Made by a program: the position numbers and the translations under genes
Part shown: in pieces, positions 3,177 through 48,802 of the stretch
Layout of the letters: each line of letters begins with the position of its first letter
How positions within the stretch are numbered: the first letter of the stretch is position 1
The notes under the pieces: model-generated
Database searches by the model: none
Seen by the model: only the letters and a program-made list of their open reading frames with translations
Told to the model about the DNA's origin: nothing
IMG/VR virus record: IMGVR_UViG_3300028571_000013
Coordinates: 1-64,000 of that record
Direction: 5' to 3' (one strand)
Length of the DNA stretch: 64,000 nt
From: a virus

Positions 3177-3929
3177 TTAATTTACAAAAGAACTGTTTTC
3201 AAAATCTATTTCGTTTCTTACTTCTTTAAACTTTAATCCAATCACAACATTCTTGGGATCGTAATATCTCATATCATACTCATCGCCATTCACAACATCA
3301 AAATCCCAAAATTTCTCTGGAACTATATCTTTAAAAACAACAGCTACCCTAGTGCTGTCTATATTCAAGGCGTTCAAACAATCTTCTTTATTTTCTCCGC
3401 TGTAGCTGAATGTTATGTCGTAATTAGAATACTTTTTAGCGAGATCTATTCTTCTGTATAGCTTTGTATAGTCATAGAATTGATTTTCATTAAAAATTTC
3501 TAATATATTTTTGTCACCCAAGACAAACTGCTCTGGCGATATATCGCTGGTATTATTCAGTCTAACCGAAAACCTTTGATTCTGTCTAGTGGCTTTTTCT
3601 CTTACCGCTTGGATTTCATCAATCATCCAACGCATAAAGAAATCTCTATTTTCAAAAAATAATTTAGTCTTAGCGATCCTGGATTTATTTATCTTGTTTG
3701 CTTTGACGTCTATTTTATTCAGTCCAGATTCATGCAAACAAGCTCTTGTGCAATCTTTTGTTCTGAGGGGACAAACTTCATAACCAGATATGTCTGCTGG
3801 GGCTAAATAAAGCGAATACGTAAGTTCATTATACTTATAGGCTTTTATGTGTTTTGCAGTAAGATTAACAGAGCCTAAATAAGAAATTCCAGTTTCTTTG
3901 ACTGCCTGGGATCGGTTTTTATAAATCAC
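3177..3929 (-). CDS. Gp88-like phage protein
   Basis: LYLAPA, VCP..T..C...CL..SG, VRLNNTSDI, FYDYTK, TFSYS, GDEYDMRY motifs. Confidence 0.7.
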   Translation of the reverse strand: MIYKNRSQAVKETGISYLGSVNLTAKHIKAYKYNELTYSLYLAPADISGYEVCPLRTKDCTRACLHESGLNKIDVKANKINKSRIAKTKLFFENRDFFMRWMIDEIQAVREKATRQNQRFSVRLNNTSDISPEQFVLGDKNILEIFNENQFYDYTKLYRRIDLAKKYSNYDITFSYSGENKEDCLNALNIDSTRVAVVFKDIVPEKFWDFDVVNGDEYDMRYYDPKNVVIGLKFKEVRNEIDFENSSFVN

Positions 3930-27383: not shown

Positions 27384-27906
27384 AATAATCTTTCCTTCTG
27401 CATCACAAGGGCTCCCGGTTTGGCCTGACTATGAGATTAGATAACAATATCTAACCTTCTTTATCTATTGAGAATTAGTCTCAACAATCATCATCTTTGT
27501 TACTATCGTTGTTACACTCTCTAGTATACCACACTCTAAGACTGTACGCAAGTGGTTGGCTCATAAGAACTTACAAACAGTGACTCATGTTATTATAGCC
27601 ACCATTCTCGCTGACTATCAGCAACGTCAGCAATCCGGCGGGATTAGGCGATACAAATTCGGGCTTGAAAAATATACAACCCATTATTATAATTCTATTA
27701 CTATTTTAACCTAAACCCTTGCCACCAAACACTTTACGTCCATATACAGTATATCGGTATCCTAACCCATTGACAACACACATCTTATGAGATTCTTTGA
27801 CTAAATTGACGTAAGTCGTTGGTACCAAATAACTTAGAGAAAATTCGGCCGGCCCGCCTTGTCGTAAGTCCTTTGCTGATAAGGGTTTACGTCAAGTGGC
27901 CTAGAA

Positions 27907-27943
27907 ATAAAAAGAACCGCCACCCATTGCTGAGTGGCGGCTC
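27907..27943 (-). terminator. Intrinsic terminator after the DUF932 gene
   Basis: gccgccactca-gcaa-tgggtggcggt followed by a T-run on the minus strand. Confidence 0.75.
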
Positions 27944-27968
27944 CCGTGTCAACCCCCATGACGAGGGA

Positions 27969-28925
27969 TTACAGTGCTTGGGCGAACTGCATAGCTTTTT
28001 CCAAAGCCTTGACATTGTCGTTCGCGTTCAGTCCGAACCACAGGCTGTCGAGCCGATTGTCTTCGGTGCGACCCTTGTGATAATTTAGATACTCATTATA
28101 TCCGTTCATTGCGGCCCACCATGTGCCTCTCACGCCCGTAGCACTCTGCTTCGGGCCTTCGACCAGATTCAAAATCTCGTCCATAATATTACGGGTACGA
28201 GTCTTGATCTGATCGTCCGGCGTACCGTCGATGTCGAGCATCACCTTGACATAGCGACGAACGTCGGCCTGATTGAAGTTCTTTGACGCGAGGAACCTGA
28301 ATTGCTCCGCAGTCGCTTCAAACTCCATGTTGATGTTGTCCATGATATCTCGCACATTTTCCAGATTGGTCTTGCTGGAACGTGTGTGACGAATCCGAAT
28401 CAGCTTGGAACCACTACTCTTGCTATGGGCCATTGCCATTGTGTTTGCACACACAACCCGAATCGGCGTATAGCCAACCCGGATAGCGGTCGTGCCATCG
28501 TGCGAGTTGCTGAGGAGAATAAACTTCCCAACCTCGTCACCCTTCACGATTTCGCTATTGCTCCGATTCAACTGGGCAAGCACCCACACCTTCTGACCAC
28601 TGTGGAGAGAACCCGCAGTATGCAGATTGCACTCACCAGCGTCGAGAAACGGCTGGAACCAATCGAATGCCTCGCTGTTTTGCAGGGGAGTATACCGTGG
28701 GCCGACAACGCCCAAAATGCTATCGTCAGTCTTTCGGTAGGTAGCACGAGCCGGGACGGGCTGGCCGTCAGTCGTGACCAAATCCTTCAAGCCGACTTCC
28801 CAATCCAAACCAGCAGCAGTGATTGCTTCCGAAATCGTGGGAGCTTGGTCGAGTTCATTACCCAGACCGTGCCACGGGGTCGCACCAACAAACATCATCT
28901 GTTCAACTGCATGAGCCATTTTCAT
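27969..28925 (-). CDS. DUF932 family phage/plasmid protein (TIGR03299-like)
   Basis: PWHGLG, AGLDWEV, Y.PLQN.EAF, TAGSL..G..VW.LA, NSHDG, TPIRVVCANT, GTWWAAMN. Confidence 0.88.
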   Translation of the reverse strand: MKMAHAVEQMMFVGATPWHGLGNELDQAPTISEAITAAGLDWEVGLKDLVTTDGQPVPARATYRKTDDSILGVVGPRYTPLQNSEAFDWFQPFLDAGECNLHTAGSLHSGQKVWVLAQLNRSNSEIVKGDEVGKFILLSNSHDGTTAIRVGYTPIRVVCANTMAMAHSKSSGSKLIRIRHTRSSKTNLENVRDIMDNINMEFEATAEQFRFLASKNFNQADVRRYVKVMLDIDGTPDDQIKTRTRNIMDEILNLVEGPKQSATGVRGTWWAAMNGYNEYLNYHKGRTEDNRLDSLWFGLNANDNVKALEKAMQFAQAL

Positions 28926-29072
28926 ATCCTCTTAGTGTTTTTCAATCGTTCCTATGCTAGCATTCTACAGTATGTTATCGTCACTGTCAAGCGAAAACTT
29001 TGGAAAAATTCTTTTCGTCGTAAGTGGTTGGTAGATAAGGACTTACGGCGACCGGGGCCGGGCGGCTTTGCC

Positions 29073-29564
29073 CTAAGTCCTTTGTGGAAAGGAGTTTAGA
29101 GCAGGGAAGCCGAAGTCCCGTTTAAAGAGCTTAGAGCCTTCTTTACCAAAATAATTACATTCATCTGGTAAGTAGAAGTAAGCTCCCACGCATATAGAGC
29201 GTGGACATTCATTGTGTAGAGTATTCTGAATTAGTTTTACAGTGGTTCCTGAACAAGTAAGATCATCAACAATAATATAATGATAAGGTGCTACTCCTTC
29301 TATATCAAAAACTGAATAACGTTTATCATCTGGTTTACGAACTACTACTATATGCTTATCTAGTACCTCAGCTATTTGTGGAACAACCATTAATCCACTA
29401 GTACCACAACAAGCAATGCTATCAAAATTATAGTTACGCAGGTCCTTCACTGCGTCCATAATAATCTTATTTCTATACTGATGATTCAGTATAATAGATG
29501 TGTGAGAGGAACCCTGAATTACTTTACCATCGTTAGTCTTTCTGTGGCTATCAATGGTAAACAT
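29073..29564 (-). CDS. Phosphoribosyltransferase-family protein
   Basis: PRPP-binding loop IIVDDLTCSGTT; VVVRK; stop codon lies inside repeat element 2. Confidence 0.8.
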   Translation of the reverse strand: MFTIDSHRKTNDGKVIQGSSHTSIILNHQYRNKIIMDAVKDLRNYNFDSIACCGTSGLMVVPQIAEVLDKHIVVVRKPDDKRYSVFDIEGVAPYHYIIVDDLTCSGTTVKLIQNTLHNECPRSICVGAYFYLPDECNYFGKEGSKLFKRDFGFPALNSFPQRT

Positions 29565-29568
29565 AAAA

Positions 29569-29649
29569 GTGGATGGTACGATTCGAACGTACAGCTAATT
29601 AAGAAAGAAATAAAGAATATATAGTCTAGACCCACCTAGAAGCATCCAC
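29569..29649 (-). ncRNA. tRNA-like element lacking a normal anticodon arm
   Basis: Acceptor GTGGATG/CATCCAC, T-arm GTACG-TTCGAAT-CGTAC, D-like stem TCTAG/CTAGA, U-rich stretch in place of the anticodon arm. Confidence 0.55.
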
Positions 29650-29653
29650 GATA

Positions 29654-29828
29654 TTAATCGTCATCATCTTCCGAAATTCCTGGATAATAATTCTTTCCAT
29701 AGGACGGAACTTCATCATCCTCTTCTGCATCTTGCATCCAAGGTTCTTCATCTATACCAAGATCCTCAGTATTCTCTTAAGAGATCGTCGTAGTTATAAT
29801 TATATCCATCATAATCTTCATATCGCAT
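29654..29828 (-). pseudogene. Highly acidic small protein, frameshifted
   Basis: MRYEDYDGYNYNYDDL / ENTEDLGIDEEPWMQDAEEDDEVPSYGKNYYPGISEDDDD; own promoter at 29851-29879. Confidence 0.55.
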
Positions 29829-29880
29829 AGCAAATCCTTTTCTTATCCCTATTCTACACTAACTAACAACAATTGTCAAG

Positions 29881-29953
29881 TGGGCCCTCGGGGACTCGAA
29901 CCCCGAACCTAAGAGTTAAAAGCTCCTTGCTCTGCCAATTGAGCTAAAGGCCC
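29881..29953 (-). tRNA. tRNA-Lys(TTT)
   Basis: Cloverleaf, anticodon loop CT-TTT-AA, GGTTCGAGTCC. Confidence 0.92.
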
Positions 29954-30421
29954 GCCGTATTATTCGGTTACGGTAATTTCTTCGTAGGAATAACTTTGAA
30001 TATTCTCAGTTGTAAAATCATATAGCTTATCGAATACATCAGCCCAATCAAAATCCTCTTGCATGGACAGTTGAATGTCGGCCAGAGTCTTACCATCCTC
30101 AGTCAAAATATCATAGATGCGAAGGTTCTTCATCGTCACTTTCCTTTCTTGTTCCAACAGTCTACCATACTCTTATTGGCTTGTCAAGGATTCAGAGTTG
30201 AAAAATTTTATTTTTCTAGTCCTATATAGTTAATAGGCTTAACTCTTTGACTCATAACAGGATAGCTATCACAAGATTCTTGTTCAGATGTCTTGTCTAT
30301 AAAATTAACATAATACCCATCGACATTAGTTCCAGTAATTCTTGCTCTGCTAGCAGAATATTCTGTAGTTTCTACCCATACCATATCGCCAACATCATGC
30401 CTAATATGAAACATTATTAAA

Positions 30422-30493
30422 TGACCCTATTGAGAATCGAACTCAAATCTACAGCGTGAAAGGCTGTCGTCCTAGCCGTTAGACTATAGGGCC
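30422..30493 (-). tRNA. tRNA-Glu(TTC)
   Basis: acagc-CT-TTC-AC-gctgt; AGTTCGATT. Confidence 0.9.
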
Positions 30494-30524
30494 AGCCATC
30501 ATAACCCAAACATCAGCCTCCGAG

Positions 30525-30600
30525 TAGGGCGTGTACGAGTCGAACGTACCTATGATCACCTTATAAGAGTGACGGATGCTACCGGCTTACCTTACGCCCC
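30525..30600 (-). tRNA. tRNA-Ile(TAT)
   Basis: tcact-CT-TAT-AA-ggtga; CGTTCGACTCG; atypical D arm. Confidence 0.8.
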
Positions 30601-30738
30601 GTGTTGTTCAATCATACTCTGTGTATCGACAAGAGTCAAGACCAACCTTTAAAAAATCCTAAGTCGTTATGGGGTAAGCACTTACGTCAAACGCGGCCCG
30701 CCACATTCGTTCTAAGTCCTTTCATACCAACAACTTAG

Positions 30739-30821
30739 TGGTAGATGCTGGGTTCGAACCAGCGAAGGCGATAGCCAGCAGATTTACAGTCTGCCCTCGT
30801 TGTCCACTTGAGTAATCTACC
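30739..30821 (-). tRNA. tRNA-Tyr(GTA)
   Basis: gcaga-CT-GTA-AA-tctgc, long variable arm. Confidence 0.92.
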
Positions 30822-30824
30822 TAA

Positions 30825-30911
30825 CGGAATACGAAAGAATCGAACTTTCACCGGGTTTATCCGGACAGCTTTAGCAAAGCTGCGTAACAAGCCAGTATTT
30901 ACCTGTATTCC
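30825..30911 (-). tRNA. tRNA-Ser(GCT)
   Basis: cagct-TT-GCT-AA-agctg, long variable arm. Confidence 0.85.
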
Positions 30912-30924
30912 ATTTTATTATAAG

Positions 30925-30996
30925 CTGTGAGGGTCAGAGTCGGACTGACATTGACCAAATTAACAGTTTGGGGCATTACCATTATGCTACCTCACA
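30925..30996 (-). tRNA. tRNA-Asn(GTT)
   Basis: ccaaa-CT-GTT-AA-tttgg; variant T loop GTCCGAC. Confidence 0.8.
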
Positions 30997-31001
30997 TCAA
31001 G

Positions 31002-31072
31002 TTCCGGGACTACGACTTGAACGTAGAAAAAAAGAATCAAAATCTTTTGTGATACCATTTCACCATCCCGGA
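31002..31072 (-). tRNA. tRNA-Gln(TTG)
   Basis: aaaga-TT-TTG-AT-tcttt; GTTCAAG. Confidence 0.85.
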
Positions 31073-31073
31073 G

Positions 31074-31146
31074 AGCTCCTGGCCGGGTACGATCCGGCGA
31101 CATTTAGTTCACAAAACTAACACTCTACCAACTGAGTTACAGGAGC
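31074..31146 (-). tRNA. tRNA-Thr(TGT)
   Basis: ttagt-TT-TGT-GA-actaa; variant T loop GATCGTA. Confidence 0.8.
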
Positions 31147-31196
31147 CTACTAACTATTATAATCAATACTCCCCACTATCGCAAGCCCGCCTATTT

Positions 31197-31592
31197 TCAG
31201 CGGATCGGGTTCGTGTTCGCTTGGGGCGATTGTCCATAACGGTGTGACGGTGTTCCTTGTGTCCCGTAGGAACCTGCCACTGCGGACGAACCTTGATTTT
31301 GATATGGTTGCGGCGTGGTCTGGTATCGTCGTTGTTGTGGAGCGTAATCATGCCAAATTCCGGTTTCATGTAAGTAAAAAACTTTGTCAATATTAGGATC
31401 GTAACCCATTAAGCAATATTGTATCGGGTAGACTGGTTTTGTCAAGACTTGTTTTTGTGGAAGTCTGGATAATTTTATATCACCTTTTTGATAATCTTTT
31501 ACACCATTATAAGCCAATCCTAAAACAGCAATCAGAATCCCAACCCACTGGATCATCTGTCCGTTCCTTTTTGGTTCTCTCTTCGTTTCCAT
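31197..31592 (-). CDS. Membrane-anchored hypothetical protein
   Basis: N-terminal TM; Q/P/Y-rich tail. Confidence 0.55.
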   Translation of the reverse strand: METKREPKRNGQMIQWVGILIAVLGLAYNGVKDYQKGDIKLSRLPQKQVLTKPVYPIQYCLMGYDPNIDKVFYLHETGIWHDYAPQQRRYQTTPQPYQNQGSSAVAGSYGTQGTPSHRYGQSPQANTNPIR

Positions 31593-31967
31593 ACCATATT
31601 ATCGACCAATCCAGCAGGGAAACTTTAGAAGATTTTTGAATTTACTCTAAAGTGTTGTGGAATAAGGACTTACGTCAAAGTCGGGCGGCCCCGCTCGCCC
31701 TAAGTGCTTACGCAGTAAGGGTTTGCGGAAAGTCTTATTCGATACTCCATCCTGCATCTTTTAGAATATGAGTAGTATGCAATACACAAGTATGTCCATC
31801 AGCATTTTTATAGTCTCTATATCCACGTTCATCAAGATAGATATGCTCATCTAGTGTATCATTTTCATTTGTTTCCCAGATAGCATCCATCGCAGCATCC
31901 CGTGGACATTTATTACAAGAGTAAATTATTTCTAGAGTTCCACACTTGATATAATACTTTGCCATTA

Positions 31968-32561
31968 TTATCCCCTGTCTCTAAATTGTTGGCAGCGAAC
32001 ACAATTACAAACCCCATAACTATCAACATAGTTGTCATCATCAGCATCGTAATCAAACTCTCCATAAATATCTGCAACCCATGAACTGAAACTTTCAACC
32101 CCAAGGTCGATAGCAACCGGAACCCATGAACCCCTGCGTCGAACATAACCAAAATTACCCTTATGGCTATCGTTATAGTCTAGTCCATGTTCATTCAAGT
32201 CATAAACTAATTCAGAAATAGTAGTACCATTACTACATTCACTCTGAAAACATTCACCATCACAATTTTCATCATCATGACACACCGGCATAGGTTTAGC
32301 AACTTCGGTCAAATAACCATAAGCAGTTAATTCCCCATCGTGTCTACGAATCATACCAACATCCCCATATACCATAGGGGCCAAATCAAATTGAGCCAGA
32401 TGCTTTTGAACCCGATGGGCAAACTCGGCCTCTTGTTTATTCTCAAACTCTTTGAAGCCCACACGCTTCCGGCCAATCTTCTTATCTTTGATAATATAGA
32501 AAGCATTTTTACTTCCTGCATCATCATACAATCCAACGTAGCTCATACCAATTCCTTTCAA
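31968..32561 (-). CDS. Protein kinase-like fold protein
   Basis: VGFKEF (Lys), LAPMVY, catalytic loop DSHKGNFG, IDLG (DFG-like). Confidence 0.65.
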   Translation of the reverse strand: MKGIGMSYVGLYDDAGSKNAFYIIKDKKIGRKRVGFKEFENKQEAEFAHRVQKHLAQFDLAPMVYGDVGMIRRHDGELTAYGYLTEVAKPMPVCHDDENCDGECFQSECSNGTTISELVYDLNEHGLDYNDSHKGNFGYVRRRGSWVPVAIDLGVESFSSWVADIYGEFDYDADDDNYVDSYGVCNCVRCQQFRDRG

Positions 32562-33271
32562 TGATTTAAAAACAAAACATTCGCAAGCCCCTTGACGCAG
32601 AGATTACATTCTATCGAATCTTTCGTCCCGGTGCAAGTGACACCACCAGCTTGTCGGCCCCGTCGCATTTCTGGACAAGTGACATATCGTTCATCGTCGA
32701 TAATAGCAAGTTTGGGGAGAGATTTTCTCCACGCTTCGATCTTAGCTTTTCCTCTTGGCTTTTTGGTACTGTAGACATTAGCAGTGTCACACCATGCGAA
32801 ATATTTGAATCCCGCTCGACTTGCTGCCTCTTTATGATCTCGATTATGAACACTAGCATATACCACCATATACTTTCCAAGCATGGTAATAATCCGTTCA
32901 TCGTAGATATGAGTATAGACCCACATCTCTGGGAGAGTCTTACCATCGGCAAGAATACTCTCACAAGCCCACACGATATTCTGGACATATTCAATATCCA
33001 GTTCATTGTTTTTCATGAAATCTCCGCGTTCGTGATAGCGGATAGCAACATTTTTCTTGATAGCTTCCAGAATCATAGCACGAATCAGATTCTTGTCTGT
33101 AATGATATTTCGCAAACCAACAGCCCGACTATTCTTGAAAAGATTTTCCGTAGCTTCGGCATAACAGCCGTCGCCCAAGAAATCGCAAGATGGAGGACAA
33201 GTATCGCCCACCGCACGACTCACGACCAAACAACCGTCACCCAACTTCTCATTACCCTTACTGAACTGCAT
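32558..33271 (-). CDS. Gp88-like phage protein (second, divergent)
   Basis: GNEKL, TCPPSC..GCYA, RYHERGDF, WVYTH, TCPE..C..C.LC. Confidence 0.65.
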   Translation of the reverse strand: MQFSKGNEKLGDGCLVVSRAVGDTCPPSCDFLGDGCYAEATENLFKNSRAVGLRNIITDKNLIRAMILEAIKKNVAIRYHERGDFMKNNELDIEYVQNIVWACESILADGKTLPEMWVYTHIYDERIITMLGKYMVVYASVHNRDHKEAASRAGFKYFAWCDTANVYSTKKPRGKAKIEAWRKSLPKLAIIDDERYVTCPEMRRGRQAGGVTCTGTKDSIECNLCVKGLANVLFLNH

Positions 33272-33441
33272 AGCGTTTTCTCCTAGTGATACCTGGATTG
33301 TATACCATTAGTATCGGAGTGTCAAGAGATAATCTTGAAGAAATTATGTTTTGATGCAAACCCTTGTGGCATAAGCACTTACGACGCGGCGGGCCGCCCG
33401 GCTTTGCTCTAAGTCTTTACTGGCAAAGAGTTTACAACAAA

Positions 33442-33515
33442 CGAGAGTGACGGGACTCGAACCCGCAACCTTCGGCTTGACAAGCCGACGATCTAACCAA
33501 TTGATCTACACCCCC
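33442..33515 (-). tRNA. tRNA-Asp(GTC)
   Basis: tcggc-TT-GTC-AA-gccga; GGTTCGAGTCC. Confidence 0.92.
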
Positions 33516-33520
33516 AACAA

Positions 33521-33594
33521 TAACCCCGGAGGGACTCGAACCCCCAACCTAGCGGATAGAAGCCGCTCGCTCTATCCAATTGAGCTACGGAGTC
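33521..33594 (-). tRNA. tRNA-Arg(TCT)
   Basis: agcgg-CT-TCT-AT-ccgct; GGTTCGAGTCC. Confidence 0.92.
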
Positions 33595-34216
33595 GTCTCG
33601 TCAATACCGCAAGCCCCCACAGCGTCCTGTGGAGGCTCGCAGTCATTATAACTCCTTAGAGTCTATCACGCAACCGCTTCCGCTGTTGCCTTACCAGACT
33701 TCGTTGCCTTGTGGCCGTCACCGGCCTCCTTGACACCGATCCCGAACTTACGGTTACGGGCAACCTTCCAACCCTGCTCACTATACTCCTTCACGCCATC
33801 GGCCTTGACGAGAGCAAGAGTCTCGCTCGGCAGACCATCAGCAAGAGCCTGACGCAGCGTATCTTCCACCACATCCGTATCAAGAACATCCGAAGCAATC
33901 GTCACGTTGAAACTAAAAGCCTTCATAATATAAAACCTCCAAAGTAATTGTAAAACTAACTCAATCGTACGGTATCAGTATACGCTACTAATACTCACTT
34001 GTCAAGTCCGTCGTGATGGTTTCTTATGTTGTGCATCGTCGTGGGGTCTTGACTTGTGATACTCTCATTCTACAGTATAGTATCGTCATTGTCAAGGGCG
34101 AACTTGAGCGTTGTTGAAAGATTTTTGATTTTGTCCTAAGTTGTTTGGTAGTAAGGACTTACGTCAAATTCGGCCGCCCCGCCTCGCCCTAAGTTCTTTA
34201 GGGACAAGGCTTTAGG

Positions 34217-34600
34217 TCAAGAGAGAAAACCCTCGCAACCCAAGGTGGTCAACTCACGAAGCAAAGCCTCTGCCGCTTCTGGCGTTTTCAGAGTCATACT
34301 CTGCTTGGTGTTCTCTGGGGCAGGATACCACTTGTCGTACTTCCAGCCACCAACCAGATAATCACTCCAATCTTTGGCCTCTTTGAGACCCCATCCGGTG
34401 TGCAGTCGGATAGCCTTGATGCAGTGGATACGGTTATCCAGAGTCATACCGCCCGTGATGGTCACCATACGACGCTGGTTCACACCCAGTGCCACTTCCA
34501 ACGAACAAACAATCTTCTCGAACATATCCAGACTGCAACCATTAGCAATCATGTTCAACGACTCACGCACGCTCATTTCGATTTTGATCATAAATTCCAA
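34217..34600 (-). CDS. Protein with ribosomal bL12 (L7/L12) C-terminal-like domain
   Basis: RIHCIKAIRLHTGWGLKEAKD...AEALLRELTTLG. Confidence 0.7.
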   Translation of the reverse strand: MEFMIKIEMSVRESLNMIANGCSLDMFEKIVCSLEVALGVNQRRMVTITGGMTLDNRIHCIKAIRLHTGWGLKEAKDWSDYLVGGWKYDKWYPAPENTKQSMTLKTPEAAEALLRELTTLGCEGFLS

Positions 34601-35096
34601 AACTTTCTGTATACTTAGGGTCTATGTCGTAAACGCTGTCAAAATTTTCTTCGTGTTCTTCCAGAATATGCACCTGTCGCCCATCCGTCACCAGACTAGC
34701 ATACTCACTATCATCCCACACAAACTGTCCATCGTCACTTTCCCTACGCCAATGTATATCTTTGATTGGGTTATAATACAACTTTTCAAGATTGTCAATA
34801 GGCAAAGTTGGATAAAAATCCTTGCGAATCATCACTTCTTCACACTGCACCCACCCACTCACATTCTTCTTCTGTTTTTTGTTCACATACCTTGCCCGAG
34901 CAACCTTATTGACCAGCTTACAGCCCCTCATCTCCAACTGGTATTCGGTCGGATCGACATAAAATTGGTCAACCCTTTTCTTTCCTTGCATAACATTAAC
35001 TTGCCATTTCCGGTAATTTTTACCGTTAAGCAAATGAAACCGTACTTCAGCGTGTGGTTCAACCTTTTTCATTTTCCTCTCCCGATAACAATGCAA
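34563..35096 (-). CDS. Hypothetical phage protein
   Basis: VRFHL..G.NY.KWQV; KKNVSGWV; YYNP. Confidence 0.6.
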   Translation of the reverse strand: MHCYRERKMKKVEPHAEVRFHLLNGKNYRKWQVNVMQGKKRVDQFYVDPTEYQLEMRGCKLVNKVARARYVNKKQKKNVSGWVQCEEVMIRKDFYPTLPIDNLEKLYYNPIKDIHWRRESDDGQFVWDDSEYASLVTDGRQVHILEEHEENFDSVYDIDPKYTESFGIYDQNRNERA

Positions 35097-37081
35097 TTGA
35101 CAGGCTGATCTCCAACCATATCGCTATAATATGCTGCGTGTCGTCCATTATACCAATAAAACTTCTCTTGTCCATCCCAGTTGTCGTTTTCAACAAGCGT
35201 GGAAGTACAGATATTTGGGTTGTCGTAACCACCCTCGTAGCCAGGAATCACCACCATGCTATCCTGTGGCACCATCTTCAGTTCTTCGATCAGTTCAGCA
35301 ACAGTCATCATATTCCCTTTCGTGTTACCACTATCTTACACTACTATTATCGACAAGTCAAGAGATAATCTTGAAAAAATATGGCTAAACGTAAAGTCTT
35401 TGTAGATAAGGACTTATGACGAATCCGGCCGGTCGCCCTTGAGCTAAGTACTTTAGCAGCAAGGACTTATGTCAACCACTAGGATAATCGGGTGGGTAAG
35501 GCTGTTCTGGTGGAGGCGGTTTGGTCTGTCCCTCATCGGACTGCCACCAAGGGGCATCCATACGATCTACGACACCGGGAGCTTCATGACAGAATATACG
35601 GTGTGGACTAAAAGGATCGTTCTCACAGTAAGAATACTCACCAGCCCACACGCCAATATACTCACCATAATACCAGATACCTTGACCATGTTCTGGTTTA
35701 CGATCAAAGAAACTAATCCATTCCATTATTATATCCTCATTGCCATCTTTTCCCAAACTTCGATCAAATCTCTAACAGTTATACCATGAACTTCTGCTAA
35801 AGTCAATGCTTCTTCTTTATTGGGCTTACACACAACCATCATGGCACTTTTCAAAACCTTCAAAACCTTAATGATTGCCTCATCTTTAGTCATCTCTTCT
35901 CCTTTGTATTAAACGTGGCGAGGACGCGACCCCCATAAATTGGCATTACTATCTAGTGCGTAACCAGCACCATCAGCCCCATCGCTGCCGCGACATGCGG
36001 GGCTTATCGTAATGAGTTACCCAACCTAGTCCAAGGCATAGACCCACGAGTTTTGTATTGTAAAGCAGATAGGGTTGAGCCATACTCGACAGCCATTTAA
36101 CCGTGGCTTCTTTGATATCATTCTGCCAGCGGCCCTCATCTGCTTGTTTTTTAAATATACCCTATAGTTTTCCTTTGTCAAGCCCTCTTCGCCTAATTTC
36201 ATCTGCACAATAGCAGATTTCATCCGTATAGTATCCATAATTGGATTGATCAGGCCATGCTTTTAAAACTTCCTTACAGTCATTAATAGTGAACAAAAGC
36301 TCAGAATGGGTCATTTTCTTGACCTTGCGAGCATAAGCAGCATGATCCATAAACTTAGTAGCAAACATAAATCCTCCAGTGTTTCTGAATTCTACCCTAT
36401 CAAAGACTCTTTGTCAAGCCCCGACTATTGGCTGACTAAACCCATCCAGCCCGACCCCGTAGGGTTAGGCGGGACAAACACGAGAGATGCGTTCAAGCAT
36501 CAAATTCTTCCCGTATAGCTTTTCGGCCATAGCCAGGGCATGATAAGTGCTATATGCTTCCACATAGCCCACAATCTTATTACCCTTCATTACCATATAG
36601 GTATCGGTATTCATACTTCCTCCTCCTCTGATCCTGCAAACATCTCTTCCCAATCTTGAGCATCAAACCCTGTTTTGAGAATCTCACGATCATCAGCACC
36701 AAGATACGGGAAGCAATTCTGAATCAAACCACCATTCAGCCACTCGTTAGCATCACTGAGTTTGGTTGCAATACAGAATGGACGACCACCAACACTGTAG
36801 CCGCTGAACCTAATCATATCGCCTTCCACAGTGCGAGTCACAGTATCTCTCAAAGCATACGGTTTACCGAGCATAAACATCTTCTTTTTCTCCTTTTGAT
36901 TCCCTGTATTCTACACTACTATTATCGGCCTGTCAAGAGGAAAAACTTGAGGAATAAAAGATTGTCGTAAAGTGTTGGGGCATAAAGACTTACGACGACG
37001 CGGGCCGGCCGACCTCGCCCTAAGTCCTTTGGTGCCAAAGGGTTAGGGGTTGGTCAGTTAGTAGGCAGAGACTGCTAGTTT

Positions 37082-37525
37082 TTAGAACAGGTTAGCAAAC
37101 CCGCTCTTGAACAAAGCACCAGCCAGCAACGGCTTTCGGCACTTCGTTACACGCTCTGCATAGAAATTACGCACCTTACCATCCGCAGTCCGACACGTTA
37201 CCAGATTACTGGTACGGATAAACTCAGGATCATTGATACGATACCGACTCTTGCGATTCAGTCTCGCAATCTGGTCAGCAGTCAACGTCTGCTTACCGAT
37301 CACCTTAGCAAGAAAACGCTCATGCGTTCCGTGCAACGGCTGCTCGTAAACAAAGTTATAGACTTGACCCTCTTGAGCATTCGCCAAACTAGCCTTCGAT
37401 CCACCATAGACCGAATAGAAGACGAAACCCACAACAGCAGCGGCAACAGCCGCAAGAATCGAACCAAACAAAATCACATCGTTCATAGAAACCCTTTCAA
37501 ATTGAAAATCGATCACAACATCCAT
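37082..37525 (-). CDS. TM-anchored protein with SH3/WYL-like C-terminus
   Basis: TM segment; LVTCRTADGKVRNFYAERV. Confidence 0.45.
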   Translation of the reverse strand: MDVVIDFQFERVSMNDVILFGSILAAVAAAVVGFVFYSVYGGSKASLANAQEGQVYNFVYEQPLHGTHERFLAKVIGKQTLTADQIARLNRKSRYRINDPEFIRTSNLVTCRTADGKVRNFYAERVTKCRKPLLAGALFKSGFANLF

Positions 37526-38147
37526 ACGCCAAGTCTACACTAATTATCGTCATTTGTCAAGCGGGAACTTTAGAAAAATTTTCTTCCCTTTCTTGTATAC
37601 GTCATTCTACTATAGAGTATCGTCAATTGCAAGGGGTAATCTTGAATCTTACAAGATTGTAAGGATCGACGTAAAGTGTTGATGCATAAGGACTTACGTC
37701 AAATGAGGCCCGCCCCGTCGGCCCTAAGTGCTTACGCACAAAGGGTTTACGACGAGGGATGAGAGATGTTTACTCAAAATCAACAAAGATGATTTGAGCA
37801 TAGCCACGAGGCTTAACGGTATAGCCGTCGCCATAGTCATAGGTTTCAGACTTGACCGCTGTCATACCGGCCAGAGCCTTAGCCTTACGAACAACACTAC
37901 GCTGAGAAGCATTCTTCTTGGGAATGAACTCATAACGATTCACCCAACCAAAGTTAGCTTCACCACCATAGGTATCGGTATGTGTAACGACGCACTTCAT
38001 TTAACAAGTTCCTTTGCTTTCATGGTTTCAAGATACAACTGTTCCAACATCTTCACACGATTCATCGCACGAACAGCTTCACGATTCATAAGTATAACCG
38101 CTTTCTGGTGTGCTGTCAATGGTTTCTTTTTCATCTTACTAACTCTC

Positions 38148-38405
38148 TCAATCTTCATAAGGCCCATCCTCGTTATAGTCTACGAATCCTACAGCCTCAT
38201 CGGCGTGGAAATCTTCTACTCCGTCGTCACCATAGTAGCCATATGATTCGTCCAAACCCCATCCACATGACTCGAACGCAGATTCAGCATCACCATCCAT
38301 ACTATCATCAAACGAATCATCCTCAACCTCATAATCAGAAAGGTCGGTGTCCATGCACTCGCCGTAGAAATCTTCAACATCGTCATACTCGTAGCTCATG
38401 GTCAA
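38148..38405 (-). CDS. Extremely acidic small protein (possible DNA mimic)
   Basis: D/E/Y-rich with no Lys or Arg in 85 aa. Confidence 0.6.
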   Translation of the reverse strand: MTMSYEYDDVEDFYGECMDTDLSDYEVEDDSFDDSMDGDAESAFESCGWGLDESYGYYGDDGVEDFHADEAVGFVDYNEDGPYED

Positions 38406-39849
38406 TCCCTCACAATGGTAGTAACGTAGAACAAACCGACATAACCCACAACAAAAGCAATTGCACTAAGCATTAGTATACTCCTCGGGAACAAATTCGT
38501 CAATGACACCCACAACATCGGCCCAATCCCAAAAATTGACTTCTACGCTCGGGTCACCGATAGGCTCAACAATACCCGCTTCGGCCATGTCATTCAGAAT
38601 AGCATTGATCTCGTCGAAGTTCAGCATGATTCTGTTCCTTGGTGGTTTCCGTTCGTGATGTTGGTATTCTACACTTATTATCGGCTAGTGTCAAGCAGCA
38701 ACTTGGGAAATTCCAGAATATAATTTCATGCCAAAGATGAAAAATCTTTTAGTTGACGTAAAGTGTTGTGGGATAAGCACTTAGGACACGGCGGGCCGGC
38801 CGGTCTCGACGTAAGTCCTTACTGGTGAAGGAGATACGTCAAGCCACACCCTAGAAGAAAACACATCCCTAATAGAATATAATCACTGATTTTCATCATT
38901 TTCCTCCATATACATGATATTTGACATACTAGCATAAAGAATAATGCCGCAAATATAACCAAAGGCAACACTGATAAAATCAAACTGATACATCCCTGTA
39001 TCTCCATTTTGTTTAAGTGGTCAATCCCCGTATCCGACCCAGAAATCATCACCCTTATCATTCTTCATAAGAGTATAACCCCTAGACTTCATATTCTCAT
39101 ACTCATTGATTCGTTGCCAAACTTCACAGAGAGTTTCCATAACTTTAAGGAAAGCCCCCATAACCCACACAAACGGATATTCGATCATTCTCATAATTTG
39201 CTCCTTCTGCACCATTCTATACTATTGTTATCGGTTCGTCAAGGGCTCTGACTTTAGGCTGACTATACCCACCTTACCCAAATCCGGAGGATTAGGAGAG
39301 ACTGTCAATTCCCTTTATTTTTGCTCAGAGCAGCATGAGATACGATCTGATCAAACGTATACCAGCTACCATCATCGTATCGGCCAGAAAGTAGAATTTT
39401 GATATTCTTTCCGACAATTTGCTGGACACTACCATATCCATCGACTACTTGAACCACATCACCAACTTTAATTTTTTGCATCTTTTCCTCTTTCAAGTAT
39501 TCTACCAGACTTTTTTGCTGCCGTCAACCCCCTCATACGGGGGTCGGTTGTGAACGATAATATTTTGCCCACAATTCATCCATCACAAATTGGACAATCC
39601 GATCATGACTACCACGACAAACGTAGTATCCCATGTGAATGTCGAACAGAGCAAACGTTCCATCCTCTTTCGGATGATAGGTAAACCCACACTTGTAGGC
39701 ATAACCATTGATTTTACCCTTGACAGTCTCAATCTTAGGAGGCTTTCTCATTTTCATTCCTTTTCTTTCTTGTTCTATCATTATACCAGTATTATCGTCC
39801 AATGTCAATAGCCTAGACTAGAAAATCTTTCCTTACATTTTCGTAAGGT

Positions 39850-40059
39850 TCAGATTCTCCACTCCAGAAAAACCAGTGTGAAGTTTTGGTTAGGATACTT
39901 TTCGGAAATATACCTTTCGGCAGTTTCTTTCCTATTGTCACTAGCTGACACACCCTGAACAACTTTCCCATCTATCATAACTTGCCAAATTTTACGCTTC
40001 CGAATTTTGGGAAGCGAACCGATGAAACCATTCACACTCATTGTCTTTTCCATTTTCAT
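39850..40059 (-). CDS. Small hypothetical protein, paralog of 41132..41356
   Basis: MEK..S.N.FI.SLP.I...K.W.V...G.VVQ.V.A.DNRK.TA..YI..KY. Confidence 0.7.
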   Translation of the reverse strand: MKMEKTMSVNGFIGSLPKIRKRKIWQVMIDGKVVQGVSASDNRKETAERYISEKYPNQNFTLVFLEWRI

Positions 40060-40169
40060 TCTCTCTTTTCTTTCTTTCTGTCTTACTTCTTATATCGACA
40101 TTATACCAAAGTTTCTTTAGTTTGCAAGAAAAAAAAATATGGAATTTTCCAAGAATATTTTATAGTGAT

Positions 40170-42270
40170 TGGCACAACATTTGCTAGATGCGACGTAAGT
40201 CGTTGTGGCGTAAGCACTTACGTCAAAAATGCGGGCGCCCCCTCGTCGTAAGTCCTTTAGCAGTAAGGGTTTACGTCAAGCTTTACGTTTGCGCCTATAC
40301 ACACGTTCAGTACCCACCCAAACGGGGAGGTAGAGTTTAGGATACAAGTGCACATATGTGCTCTTTACCCATCGCTCAGTCTCTAGTATAACATCGTACA
40401 CTAGTATACAATAGTTCATTCATCTTCTCCCTTGAAGCTGAACGGACTGATTTCTTCACCGCAGGCTGCGATGGCCGCATACTGCCTTGCCAATTCTTCC
40501 ACACGTTCACGGCTACCGGGCTTACCTACCGGAACGATCATGGTATCCTCACCCCCTACATAGCGGGGATCGGCCTTTTCCTTGCGAACCTTTCCGATAT
40601 TCTTCAAGGCAGTACGATTGAACTTGAGAACCTTTTTGGTCACAACGTAACGCTTCTGATCATCCACACCGTAGACGTAATCGGTATCTTCCGTGATTCG
40701 ATCATCGGGAATCTCGACCAGCATAGGGATTGCAATACCCTTGAAAATCATACGGGCTTGACGCTTGGCATTTTCGATGATGGGGAACTTGGTTTTCATT
40801 GTCTTTTTCTCTCTTAGGGTCTATCGTTCTCTTGTTCGTGTATTATACCAAACTGTTTTTCAATTTCAAGAGAAAAGTTTCCTTACAATATCGCAAGGAT
40901 ACCATTTTCTTTTTCGTAGCAGTCTAAATAAATGAACTGATCGACCCTATCTTGGTATTCAGTTTTGATAGTCCAAACATGACCTTCATCGTAATGATAG
41001 GAAACAATTTTTCCAGAAATTTCACGACCATCATCATTCACCACAACATTTTCACCAACTTCAAACATTTTTTCTCTCTTTTCTTTCTTCTAGTATTCTA
41101 CCAAAGTTTTTCTTTTCTTCAACCCCCTCTATTAGAGGGTCATCAATCCCTTGAAGTGCGAGAACGTCAGGGTCAAGGATTGTCCGACATATTTGTCGTC
41201 AATGTAATCTTGTGCAGTGCTTTTCCGATTATCGGTAGCACCAACATACTGAACAACCGTACCATTCTGATCGGTTACTTTCCATACTTTCTTCTGAACA
41301 ATCCTAGGCAGGCTGTTGATGAAATCGTTTGTTGAAATTGCTTTTTCCATTTTCATTCTCTCTTTTCTTTTTCTTTATATCGACATTATACACTCTGTAT
41401 CTTGATTGGCAAGAAAAAAAAATATGGCAAAAAAATATTTTTTATGGCACGATATTTGCTCATGCGACGTAAGTCGTTGGTACATAAGCACTTACGTCAA
41501 AAAAGCGGGCGCGTTTTCGTTGTAAGTCCTTTGGTAGCAAGGGTTTATGTCGAATCGTTGTACAGTAGTGTACGGGTGATCACCCCCTCTTACTAGGGGA
41601 GCTACCCTTACCAATCGTCATCCAGCCATCATTTACGGCTTGAATCGTAAACTTTGCATGATTGATCATTTCAGACTCAGTGAACGTATGACCATTACGA
41701 TACACACGAACAATCTGAATTTCCTTACCGATCATTTGGTAATCAGCATAAACACCACCTACTGCAATCATCATCGTTTTCATATTCATTCTCTTTTTTC
41801 TATTGAACATTCTATCAAGTTTTCGCCGCCTCAACCTAGTCTACCGATACCGGCGACTAGGACGGACACCATACTTGACCAGACTATTATCTTTCAAGGC
41901 ATCATATCCATCATCGGTATTCTTAAAGGCCGGACGGACATTGTAGAACATAACGTCTTGAGCTTTTTCAAAGTAAATGGAACGGAAGCCGTCTACGGTC
42001 TCAATGACCAGCAGATTACCCTTACCCTCAATTTTACGTTGACTCTTGACGATACCCTCAATTTTGAGGGGGGAAGGATCCTTGACACCCTGATAGGTGC
42101 AAACAATCTTGCAACCGACAACATTCTTACCATTTTTGCTTACTGTAATCATTTTCTTTCTCTTTTCTTTCTTTCTTTGTCTTTCGTTTCACCGATTATA
42201 CATTATAGTATCGTCAAAGCAACAAAAAAAAATTAGAAAAAGAAATATTTTATATGGCATGGCATTTGCT
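40170..42270 (+). promoter_or_regulatory. Three sigma54 (-24/-12) consensus sites
   Basis: TGGCAC-AACAT-TTGCT 40170-40185; TGGCAC-GATAT-TTGCT 41445-41460; TGGCAT-GGCAT-TTGCT 42255-42270. Confidence 0.7.
41132..41356 (-). CDS. Small hypothetical protein, paralog of 39850..40059
   Basis: Same motif; upstream DNA also shared. Confidence 0.7.
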   Translation of the reverse strand: MKMEKAISTNDFINSLPRIVQKKVWKVTDQNGTVVQYVGATDNRKSTAQDYIDDKYVGQSLTLTFSHFKGLMTL

Positions 42271-48172: not shown

Positions 48173-48802
48173 TTGATGAGCAAAAAACAAAACAAGAAAC
48201 CACAGATAAATAAAGAAGTTTCTGAAGAGGATTTTCTAAAGACACTAGAGATTATTACTAAAAAATTAGTATATAAATTTAAGTTTGGATATCACGACGT
48301 TGATGATATGAGACAGCAAGCAGCAATATTTGCTTTGGAGGGTTTAGACCATTATGACTATTCTAGACCTTTAGAAAACTTCTTATGGACACATGTAAGA
48401 AATCGTTTATTTAATTACAAAAGAGATAATTACCAGAGACCAGACAAGCCGTGTCTTACCTGTCCATTATATAGACCAAATAGTGAAGGTTCTGATTGTG
48501 CACAGTTTAAGGATAAATTAAATTGTAATGCTTACAAGGTTTGGTTTAAGCGTAATAATAGTAAAAAAAATATAATGAAACCAGGATACATCGAGGATTA
48601 CGATCCTGAACAATCTAATAATAATTTTATAGAATCTATTTCTAATCAAGAAATTATAGATTATTTAGAAGATAATTTACCAACCAAATATAGAGAGATT
48701 TATTTAAAGCTAAAACATGGAACTAAAATCTCTAAGAACGATAAAACCAAATTACAGAACTATATAAAAAATAATATTTTACCTAAATTTAAAAAAGACT
48801 AA
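48173..48802 (+). CDS. Phage sigma70-family factor-like protein (probable late sigma)
   Basis: Region-2-like DDMRQQAAIFALEGLDHYDYSRPLENFLWTHVRNRLFNYKRD; CxxC insert; LP.KYREI region-4-like. Confidence 0.7.
   Translation: MMSKKQNKKPQINKEVSEEDFLKTLEIITKKLVYKFKFGYHDVDDMRQQAAIFALEGLDHYDYSRPLENFLWTHVRNRLFNYKRDNYQRPDKPCLTCPLYRPNSEGSDCAQFKDKLNCNAYKVWFKRNNSKKNIMKPGYIEDYDPEQSNNNFIESISNQEIIDYLEDNLPTKYREIYLKLKHGTKISKNDKTKLQNYIKNNILPKFKKD

What the first reader, a model, noticed from the sequence alone, without database searches (positions are those of the whole stretch)
27810..41549. Gene-cassette-like array bounded by 12 double-palindrome elements with an invariant 53-bp phase
Seen: twelve 82-bp elements (starts 27810, 29019, 30658, 31646, 33355, 34135, 35390, 36966, 37670, 38757, 40194, 41468), all in the same orientation and 0.7-1.7 kb apart. 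Each has two sites CGTAAGTnnTT-N7-AAnnACTTACG whose starts are exactly 53 bp apart in all 12 copies, joined by a GC-rich linker. The 7-bp cores and linkers vary while the arms and geometry are kept. A solo site lies at 27710-27738. Elements mark unit boundaries: gene or tRNA 3' ends abut or fall inside the right end (29073, 30739, 31735, 33442, 34217, 35472, 38819), and in most cases a strong sigma70 promoter for the next unit lies 20-70 bp to the left. Established: 11-bp arms around a 6-8-bp core is the layout of tyrosine-recombinase sites (dif, loxP class), and 53 bp is about 5 helical turns; T4-type PeSL elements are a precedent for repeat-mediated module shuffling. Inference: either an integron-like shuffling array of promoter-bearing early cassettes, or phased binding sites for a tetrameric or looping protein that organises, silences or protects this DNA. 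The variable cores favour binding or homology-independent exchange over Cre/lambda-type recombination. No recombinase gene is visible in the window.
Basis: partly seen in the sequence, partly recalled or inferred. Interest (0 to 1): 0.92.

Follow-up and report, generated by a model that had tools for sequence, protein, structure and literature searches.

The report
Paired protein-docking palindromes before phage promoters
Twelve rigid 82-bp DNA modules, each two palindromes 53 bp apart, sit in helical step upstream of this lake phage's early promoters and most likely dock a DNA-bending protein.

Summary
Twelve 82-bp elements (29-bp site A, 24-bp GC-rich linker, 29-bp site B; A to B exactly 53 bp) and two solo sites lie at 27547-41549 and nowhere else in the 125-kb phage record. 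The same module occurs in at least 56 IMG/VR loci, about 230 copies.

It is not a conserved hairpin. Pairing is no higher than in column shuffles, and RNAalifold finds no structure on either strand. In orthologous copies the arms are kept (84-90%) while the cores drift (56-63%).

70% of 220 copies have a strong sigma70 promoter on the A side. The distance to it has a 10.5-bp period, p about 7e-7 on 67 clusters. Each half-site reads YAA-N4-TTR with TT/AA steps 9 bp apart, like a mirrored IHF site.

No recombinase or HU/IHF gene was found in 27-28 element-bearing phage records. Rearrangement junctions are not enriched for elements.

Best reading: phased docking sites for a DNA-bending dimer, probably the host's, upstream of early promoters. 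The integron-like reading is not supported.

This scan has already found the family on other genomes.

The parts
   Evidence: 25.6 bits
27710..27738 (-). solo palindromic site, scores best inverted
   Evidence: 31.8 bits on the minus strand, 17.8 on the plus strand
27810..27891 (+). element E1 (A 27810-27838, linker, B 27863-27891); minus-strand promoter 27776-27748. A canonical terminator at 27945-27912 lies between gene 27969-28925 and the element.
29019..29100 (+). element E2; the stop of ORF 29073-29564 lies inside site B; promoter 28990-28962 (11 of 12) drives the DUF932 gene 27969-28925
30658..30739 (+). element E3; the tRNA-Tyr 3' end (30738) abuts site B; promoter 30639-30611
31646..31727 (+). 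element E4; ORF 31735-31965 ends 8 bp away; no promoter of at least 9 of 12 within 110 bp (best 7 of 12)
33355..33436 (+). element E5; the tRNA-Asp 3' end (33441) is 5 bp away; promoter 33325-33297
34135..34216 (+). element E6; ORF 34217-34600 ends at its edge; promoter 34095-34067
35390..35471 (+). element E7; ORF 35472-35756 ends at its edge; promoter 35361-35333 (9 of 12)
36966..37047 (+). element E8; promoter 36936-36908
37670..37751 (+). element E9; promoter 37632-37604 (9 of 12)
38757..38838 (+). element E10; ORF 38819-39061 overlaps site B by 20 bp; promoter 38694-38666
40194..40275 (+). element E11; promoter 40127-40100; a sigma54-like box at 40170 on the plus strand faces into it
41468..41549 (+). 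element E12 (84% identical to E11); promoter 41412-41385; a sigma54-like box at 41445 on the plus strand

Best explanation
Each 82-bp element is a double-stranded DNA docking module. It is not an RNA or single-strand hairpin and not a site-specific recombination site. Each 29-bp palindrome binds one dimer of a DNA-bending protein. The two dimers sit about five helical turns apart on the same face, held by a stiff GC-rich spacer. The whole module sits at a fixed rotational setting one to five turns upstream of the -35 box of a strong host-type early promoter, with the site A centre near -68, -78, -89 or -100. The module therefore shapes the DNA upstream of each early promoter. It may help or tune RNA polymerase, or insulate one transcription unit from the next; which of these is not shown. 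The protein is most likely supplied by the host and of the IHF/HU (DNABII) kind. The half-site reads YAA-N4-TTR outward from the dyad, TT and AA steps lie 9 bp apart, and none of the phages examined encodes such a protein. Because about 80-140 bp of similar sequence recurs at most unit boundaries, the modules can also act as seams for homologous exchange between phages. That would be a by-product. Shown: anatomy, distribution, absence of pairing selection, promoter linkage and phasing. Inferred: protein binding, the identity of the protein, and the effect on transcription.
For: The geometry is rigid across phages. Site-to-site spacing is 53 bp in 200 site pairs, with lineage variants at 50 (23), 52 (19) and 42 (11). 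There are 230 double elements in 56 of 118 loci, mostly on one strand per locus.

Pairing is not selected. On 148 copies, 72.2% of cells pair against 72.9% in shuffles, and 495 of 500 shuffles score as high. The covariation score is 0.136 against 0.146. RNAalifold predicts 0 pairs on either strand. The top mutual-information pairs are all neighbouring columns.

Selection acts on the arms: orthologous identity is 0.84-0.90 for arms against 0.56-0.63 for cores.

The promoter link is strong. 70% of 220 copies have a promoter scoring at least 9.5 of 12 within 110 bp on the A side, against 7% on the other flank. The distances peak at 17-18, 27-29, 38-40, 50-51 and 59 bp. Rayleigh R is 0.46, p about 7e-7, at 10.5 bp with one value for each of 67 similarity clusters, and is weaker at 8, 9 and 13 bp.

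The sites resemble IHF sites. AA at 19-20 and TTA at 25-27 are near-invariant, and position 18 is C or T in 1147 of 1378 half-sites. 95 of 1378 half-sites match all 9 fixed positions of WATCAANNNNTTR, only in this register. WATC occurs in 7.9% against 1.9% conditional background. The consensus and the 9-bp kink spacing are taken from passages of bioRxiv 10.1101/382655.

No phage-encoded binder of that family was found. PF00216 is over its cut-off in 0 of 28 records and absent from the own record.

The same palindrome occurs in bacterial genomes at 7-28 copies in five genomes against 0 for the reversed-pattern control. About 39 of the 80 record titles shown are Planctomycetota. This fits a host-side factor.

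Sites are confined to one 7-20 kb region in five near-complete phage records.
Against: No protein has been shown to bind; the identity rests on sequence likeness only.

In this phage's own 24 sites, the half-sites match only 4-8 of the 9 IHF consensus positions and never all 9.

The N4 block (GGAC) and the outer CG are far more conserved than in E. coli IHF sites, which would fit base-specific reading by another kind of dimer.

The promoters are near-consensus and should not need activation. 30% of copies have no good promoter nearby, including E4 here.

Site B shows many more G:T than A:C oppositions: 103 against 12, and 77 against 10. That is what a plus-strand hairpin would give, although the whole-structure tests see no pairing selection.

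The bacterial copies are patchy. In a mixed sample of 81 genomes, 31 have a hit, and a few genomes hold most of them. Some bacterial copies sit at the ends of multi-copy elements, which is more like a mobile-element site than a general nucleoid-protein site.
Confidence: 0.55

Rival explanations
1. The elements are PeSL-like seams. Their main evolutionary role is to provide repeated homology, together with the conserved promoters, at which general homologous recombination swaps, deletes or duplicates early gene units, as shown for T4-type phages.
For: The region is plastic. L067 and L090 carry the 38819-39021 unit before the 37770 and 38466 units, L067 swaps 40416 and 41132, and relatives differ in how many elements split a unit. 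Several DNA homology blocks begin or end within 0-8 bp of an element edge, for example E9 start +2, E10 start -4, E5 end +0 and E12 end -3. E11 and E12 are 84% identical. Short contigs of relatives join different elements of this window. PeSLs are defined as a sigma70 promoter plus an AT-rich tract plus a GC-rich stem-loop in hyperplastic regions (passages of PMC2839356; abstract of PMC4122927).
Against: Junctions are not enriched for elements: 32 of 54 rearranged, 20 of 37 skipped and 61 of 107 conserved adjacencies carry one. This is a crude count and events are not independent. Some rearrangements have no element at the junction (35069/35472; 40416/39850). Copies within one genome are only 60-84% alike, which is poor substrate for homologous recombination. 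Homology alone does not explain the invariant 53-bp geometry, the arms-only conservation or the helical register with promoters. No joints were seen in the two own-strain runs, but those are contigs, which drop rare forms.
Confidence: 0.2
2. The elements are site-specific recombination sites, either integron-like or res-like, used by an unrecognised or host-encoded recombinase or transposase that mobilises the units between them.
For: The layout of 11-bp arms around a 7-bp core resembles recombinase core sites. A 53-bp centre distance is what I recall for sites I and II of Tn3/gamma-delta res; this is recalled and comes from no call. In one bacterial genome (G005) a double site with a 78-bp spacing forms the outer end of a repeat. 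All 9 copies found lie at contig ends, as at the tip of a multi-copy mobile element. Single sites lie 4-9 bp from tRNA or tmRNA ends in several bacterial genomes.
Against: No PF00589, PF00239 or PF01797 is in the own record. There are 0 of 27 records with PF00589 and 0 of 27 with PF00239. Cores differ between copies and even between orthologues, so crossover homology is lacking. No site lies near 12 sampled Y1-transposase genes of the bacterial genomes. Elements stay at orthologous places over 40-95% protein divergence. The helical register with promoters is not expected for recombination sites.
Confidence: 0.07
3. The elements act as RNA or single-stranded DNA hairpins: terminators, 3' stabilisers, RNase processing sites or replication-linked structures.
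For: They lie directly after gene and tRNA 3' ends. Whole elements fold somewhat better than shuffles, with z about -1.4 on the plus strand and -2.0 on the minus strand. Site B has a G:T excess on the plus strand. In bacteria the site often lies beside tRNA or tmRNA ends and intrinsic terminators. In bacterial copies pair 8:22 is complementary in 57 of 112, against about 32 expected from the column make-up (the expected figure is my own arithmetic).
Against: Pairing is no better than in column shuffles. There is no consensus fold on either strand. Best folds differ from copy to copy. The linker is no more stable than shuffles, z about -0.13. A conserved 2x2 mismatch sits in site A; pair 9:21 is G:G in 105 of 208. 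There is no U-tract. E1 lies after a separate canonical terminator. Terminator-like hits in the region (15) are near the shuffle level of 11.3 +/- 3.6. No Rfam family other than tRNA matches.
Confidence: 0.07
4. The elements are selfish miniature mobile repeats (REP/BIME- or MITE-like) that spread within this region and have no function for the phage.
For: Dispersed copies occur in bacterial genomes, including a 28-copy repeat in G004. REP families are known in many phyla, including Planctomycetes (abstract and passages of PMC3733652).
Against: Positions are orthologous across distant relatives. Purifying selection acts on the arms only. Copies are strictly confined to one region and one orientation. 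The helical phasing to promoters and the head-to-tail pairing are not expected; that paper reports head-to-tail dimers as rare for REPs.
Confidence: 0.08

Closest known systems
PeSL (promoter-early stem-loop) cassettes of T4-type phages (Arbiol et al. 2010, PMC2839356, passages read; Comeau et al. 2014, PMC4122927, abstract and outline read)
   Same: Both are about 100 bp of conserved intergenic sequence repeated through a hyperplastic early region. Both join a GC-rich core and an AT-rich tract to a strong sigma70-type promoter. Both flank small orphan genes and lie at some rearrangement junctions.
   Different: PeSLs have one stem-loop, often between or over the -35 and -10 boxes, that works as a terminator. 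Here two 29-bp palindromes at a fixed 53 bp flank the GC core. They lie upstream of the promoter in helical register and show no pairing selection. PeSL mini-circles were shown by experiment; nothing comparable is shown here.
IHF (DNABII) binding sites, such as lambda attP H' and H1 (consensus and 9-bp kinks from passages of bioRxiv 10.1101/382655); IHF upstream of lambda pL and at sigma54 promoters (recalled, from no call)
   Same: The half-site YAA-N4-TTR falls in the right register, flexible TT/AA steps lie 9 bp apart, and the site length is about 29-35 bp. The sites lie upstream of promoters, and sigma54-like boxes occur in the same regions.
   Different: The sites here are symmetric, as for a homodimer. 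The N4 and outer bases are strongly conserved. The sites always come as a phased pair around a GC core and are repeated 12-29 times in one region. Binding is untested.
Phage phi29 p4 binding sites between the early and late promoters (recalled; also named by an earlier scan note, e1-5877035; the papers were not read here)
   Same: Several interrupted inverted repeats of about 27-29 bp bind a small bending dimer and, as pairs, reshape promoter DNA.
   Different: In phi29 there is one control region with four sites and a phage-encoded protein. Here there are a dozen or more modules, and no conserved phage candidate was found; the one HTH protein tested is in 0 of 27 related records.
REP/BIME repeats, including IHF-binding BIMEs of enterobacteria (REP survey PMC3733652, abstract and passages; the IHF-BIME link is recalled)
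   Same: Both are short extragenic palindromes close to gene 3' ends, often paired with a conserved spacer. Related copies are dispersed in bacterial chromosomes.
   Different: REP dimers are mostly head-to-head or tail-to-tail and are thought to fold. Here the pairs are head-to-tail with no pairing selection. No RAYT link was found: 0 of 12 loci.

Membership tests
PeSL cassette | strong sigma70-type early promoter with an AT-rich upstream tract as part of the repeat | tested here: met
   11 of 12 own elements and 70% of 220 copies have a promoter scoring at least 9 to 9.5 of 12 on the A side, against 7% on the control flank
PeSL cassette | a stable stem-loop that acts as a terminator or attenuator | tested here: not met
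   no pairing selection; no consensus fold on either strand; linker z about -0.13; no U-tract. Function in vivo was not tested.
PeSL cassette | recombination between copies generates indels, replacements and mini-circles | tested here: inconclusive
   some junctions lie at element edges, but there is no enrichment (32 of 54 against 61 of 107) and no joints in own-strain contigs
IHF/DNABII binding site | match to WATCAANNNNTTR in one register | tested here: inconclusive
   YAA-N4-TTR is near-universal; 9 of 9 in 95 and 8 of 9 in 225 of 1378 half-sites, only at the dyad register; the own 24 sites score 4-8 of 9
IHF/DNABII binding site | two kinkable steps 9 bp apart around the dyad | tested here: met
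   invariant TT at 10-11 and AA at 19-20, with midpoints 9 bp apart; the 9-bp kink spacing comes. Kinking itself is inferred.
IHF/DNABII binding site | bound and bent by a DNABII protein | not testable with these tools
   no DNABII gene is in the phage records; this needs a gel shift or footprint with host protein
Integron attC / tyrosine-recombinase core site | a cognate tyrosine recombinase encoded with the array | tested here: not met
   PF00589 is absent from the own record and from 27 of 27 related records
Integron attC / tyrosine-recombinase core site | a shared crossover (core) sequence between partner sites, or a conserved folded strand with extrahelical bases | tested here: not met
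   cores differ between the 12 copies and are 56-63% identical even between orthologues; no fold is conserved
Serine-resolvase res site | a resolvase gene next to the sites | tested here: not met
   PF00239 is absent from the own record and from 27 of 27 related records
REP/BIME (RAYT-linked) | association with a Y1 (RAYT) transposase and a foldable palindrome | tested here: not met
   no PF01797 in the phage; 0 of 12 Y1 loci in five motif-bearing bacterial genomes have a site; no pairing selection in the phage copies
Intrinsic terminator | GC-rich hairpin followed by a U-tract | tested here: not met
   none of the 12 elements is called on the minus (gene) strand; the only hit inside an element is a plus-strand call in site B of E12, at 41528-41543. 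The region has 15 hits against 11.3 +/- 3.6 in shuffles. E1 lies after a separate terminator.

The most novel reading that the evidence does not exclude
The module may be a shared 'handle' of a mobilisation system that works in both phages and their hosts. The same double palindrome forms the outer tip of a multi-copy mobile element in a planctomycete-like genome and flanks tRNA and tmRNA genes. A host-encoded enzyme not recognised by current family models, helped by a DNA-bending protein, could then cut or copy at these modules and move promoter-bearing gene units between phages and chromosomes. That would be a cassette system without an integrase of any known family.
Probability: 0.1. Interest if true: 0.88.

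Novelty: new variant of a known kind. Interest (0 to 1): 0.66.

Why it matters
If the reading holds, a large group of uncultured freshwater and marine phages, with genomes of 125 to 230 kb, builds every early transcription unit from the same standard part: a rigid, phased pair of docking sites for a bending protein joined to a strong promoter.

That would be a clear case of phages wiring their first minutes of gene expression to a host architectural protein. It would give a sequence tag for finding early regions, promoters and possibly hosts in metagenomic phage contigs that have no cultured relative.

The bacterial copies point to Planctomycetota, a group with few known phages.

I found no description of the module in the three paper searches I ran. 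These searches were narrow and do not show that it is unpublished.

Tried and rejected
Cultured relatives. Megablast of the array against cultured phages gave one trivial 59-bp hit. tblastn of the terminase gave at most 25% identity, to Bacillus phages. No cultured relative was available for comparison.

RNA families. Rfam matched only tRNAs in the window. In 16 bacterial loci it matched only one tmRNA and one tRNA.

Candidate phage binders. The HTH protein at 2644-3174 (Pfam HTH_17 and Sigma70_r4) has no PDB relative. It is found in 0 of 27 related records and was dropped.

GP88. The GP88-family protein at 3177-3929 is the only array-linked gene shared with the 42- and 50-bp-spacing lineages. 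It has 3235 homologues. The AlphaFold model has mean pLDDT 81, no PDB sequence match and no Foldseek match at E <= 0.001; the best hits are weak barrel enzymes. Nothing suggests DNA binding. PHROGs and Pfam gave no function for most cassette genes.

Shared neighbour genes. None was found at the bacterial sites apart from one conserved Flavobacterium locus. The orientations of flanking ORFs were mixed: 19 ++, 18 -+, 16 --, 11 +-.

Sequencing runs. No RNA holder was listed. Only contigs could be laid. They showed no joints in runs X1 and X5. Joints in X7 and X8 have sides of 21-57 letters, or 164-165 for two small replacements of 114-122 bp at 88% likeness, and may be cross-matches between similar elements.

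Phylum sampling. I meant to sample two different phyla, but both returned the same 80 genomes (G034-G113) beside the genome named as centre, 81 searched in each. That sample is therefore not phylum-specific and I do not call it Planctomycetota. In one search's 81 genomes, 31 had a hit, with about 138 forward matches against about 37 for the control by my own sum.

Resemblances dropped. By eye I considered DnaA boxes, ECF-sigma promoters, FNR/CRP boxes and dif; the spacing or bases did not fit, and I ran no formal test. Supplementary files of the PeSL papers were not seen; they hold PeSL alignments that could sharpen the comparison.

Full report
What is there. The window is the first 64 kb of a single 125,189-bp virus record. 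It carries rIIA/rIIB, a large terminase, a ligase, PhoH, a ribonucleotide reductase and a phage sigma factor. All genes and 10 tRNAs between 26 and 43 kb lie on the minus strand. Each is a 29-bp interrupted palindrome (A), a 24-bp linker and a second palindrome (B), with A to B exactly 53 bp in 12 of 12. The pattern finds 12 sites against 0 in 100 shuffles. A matrix scan of the whole record finds sites only at 27547-41549, plus one weak hit at 51914. There are two solo sites, not one (27547 and 27710). The region is richer in G+C (0.41-0.45) than its flanks (0.30-0.36).

How widespread it is. In these loci neighbouring sites are 53 bp apart 200 times. The next commonest spacings are 50 (23), 52 (19) and 42 (11). 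A full-element matrix finds 230 double elements in 56 loci, nearly always on one strand per locus. By dominant spacing, 54 loci are of the 53-bp kind, 9 of the 50-bp kind, 7 of 52, 3 of 49 and 2 of 42. All have GC-rich linkers. In five near-complete records of 131-233 kb the sites fill one stretch of 7-20 kb and nothing else. Many cassette genes of this window recur in these loci at 40-95% identity. Gene order is largely conserved and elements sit at orthologous places.

Hairpin or duplex site. On 208 unique copies, TAA (3-5), TT (10-11), AA (19-20) and TTA (25-27) are invariant or nearly so in both sites. The variable stem positions do not co-vary. Pair 2:28 is G:C 103, C:C 48 and G:G 22, and pair 9:21 is G:G in 105. 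The strongest mutual information is always between neighbouring columns. On a gap-free alignment of 148 copies (136 drawn at random from the 208 unique copies, plus the 12 own), the share of paired cells is 72.2% against 72.9% in column shuffles, with 495 of 500 shuffles as high. The covariation score is 0.136 against 0.146. RNAalifold predicts no pair on either strand. The linker folds no better than shuffles, and best folds differ from copy to copy. Against this, site B has a clear excess of G:T over A:C oppositions, which I cannot explain by a symmetric dimer. Between orthologous copies (39 pairs chosen by flank similarity) the arms are 84-90% identical, the cores 56-63%, the linker 70% and the flanks 55-67%. 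Selection therefore acts on each arm's sequence and on the geometry, as expected for a protein site on duplex DNA.

Link to promoters. The region holds 76 sigma70-like sites against 40.2 +/- 6.1 in shuffles. Eleven of the 12 elements have one 18-66 bp beyond site A, reading away from the element. Across 220 copies, 70% have such a promoter against 7% on the other flank. The distance from the edge of A to the -35 box clusters at 17-18 (20 copies), 27-29 (57), 38-40 (23), 50-51 (6) and 59 (4). After collapsing to one value for each of 67 similarity clusters, the Rayleigh statistic peaks at 10.5-11 bp (R 0.46-0.47, p about 4e-7 to 7e-7) and is weak at 8, 9 and 13 bp. This puts the centre of A near -68, -78, -89 or -100; that placement is my arithmetic. 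A fixed face of the helix relative to the promoter is what a bound protein, or the bend it makes, would require.

What might bind. Read outward from the dyad, the half-site is Y-A-A, four bases (mostly GGAC), T-T-A, then C/G-G. That is the CAA-N4-TTR part of the IHF consensus. The invariant TT and AA steps are 9 bp apart, the spacing of the two IHF kinks (passages of bioRxiv 10.1101/382655). In the 42-, 50- and 52-bp lineages many half-sites match the whole consensus: 95 of 1378 half-sites at 9 of 9 and 225 at 8 of 9, all in this one register. WATC occurs in 7.9% against 1.9% conditional background. This phage's own sites reach only 4-8 of 9. No HU/IHF-family gene is in this record or over the family cut-off in 28 other records. 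The one phage HTH protein I tested is absent from 27 of 27 relatives. By my count about 39 of the 80 titles shown are Planctomycetota. Five such genomes hold 7-28 sites each against 0 for the reversed pattern. The bacterial sites lie in four settings: 4-9 bp from tRNA or tmRNA ends; beside intrinsic terminators; in a 28-copy dispersed repeat; and, as a double site, at the tip of a repeat whose 9 copies all end contigs. These settings are ones where, from memory, IHF sites are found in enterobacteria, but they would equally suit a mobile-element protein. Sigma54-type boxes are also enriched: 3 in this record and 67 in 1.03 Mb of related loci, where I expect about 2 by chance by my arithmetic. 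Several lie next to elements.

Recombination. No tyrosine recombinase, serine recombinase or Y1 transposase domain is in this record. No tyrosine or serine recombinase is in 27 related records, 13 of them at least 90% complete. The region is plastic, and several homology blocks stop within a few bases of an element edge. But an element lies at 32 of 54 rearranged, 20 of 37 skipped and 61 of 107 conserved gene adjacencies, which is no enrichment. The count is crude, events are shared by descent, and only genes with hits were counted. Contigs of two runs that hold this very phage show no joints. Joints seen in relatives' short contigs are weak.

Verdict. The best-supported mechanism is a phased pair of duplex docking sites for a bending dimer upstream of early promoters, probably a host IHF/HU-type protein. 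Homologous exchange at the repeats is a possible by-product. The integron-like reading and the hairpin reading are not supported. Earlier notes of this scan on eight other genomes reached much the same reading. I read them only. They are not independent evidence.

Noticed in passing
window 40170, 41445, 42255 (plus strand); related loci L001-L118: Sigma54-type boxes (TGGCAY-N5-TTGCW) occur 3 times in this record and 67 times in 1.03 Mb of related loci. Several lie 30-70 bp from an element, on either strand. The two at 40170 and 41445 face into elements E11 and E12, antisense to the genes.
   Followed up: partly
window 28000-42000: The element-bearing early/tRNA region is richer in G+C (0.41-0.45) than the rest of the window (0.29-0.40, mostly about 0.34).
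   Followed up: no
window 3177-3929 and 32558-33271 (minus strand): Two GP88-family paralogues, one inside the array. The family has 3235 homologues, three invariant cysteines (C53, C60, C64), a confident model (pLDDT 81) and no solved relative. It is the only array-linked gene shared with the 42- and 50-bp-spacing phage lineages.
   Followed up: partly
G000 120744-124016 (L122:5744-9016, minus strand): A ribonucleotide reductase interrupted by an intein with a LAGLIDADG endonuclease domain.
   Followed up: no
window 48173-48802 (plus strand): A phage sigma factor (Sigma70_r2) just right of the divergent switch at about 43.5 kb. It is conserved in 24 related loci.
   Followed up: no
window 34563-35756 compared with L049, L090, L051, L006, L007: Gene 35069 lies on the other side of element E7 and gene 35472 than in most relatives. 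This small transposition has junctions that are not both at elements.
   Followed up: partly
G005 contig ends (L158, L251, L258-L262) and G004 (L243, L248, L253): In one bacterial genome a double site with a 78-bp spacing forms the tip of a repeat found only at contig ends (9 copies). In another genome a longer unit containing one site and a poly-G tract is dispersed in about 28 copies.
   Followed up: partly
L254, L266, L156, L150, L127/L252: In bacterial genomes single sites lie 4-9 bp from the 5' or 3' ends of tRNA genes and from the 3' end of a tmRNA gene. This echoes the tRNA-abutting elements E3 and E5 of the phage.
   Followed up: partly
window 28954-29000, 34059-34105, 37602-37635 and others: The promoters themselves form repeat families of 30-47 bp (families D4, D6, D8, D9 and D14). 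The repeated unit at many boundaries is therefore element plus promoter, about 140 bp.
   Followed up: no
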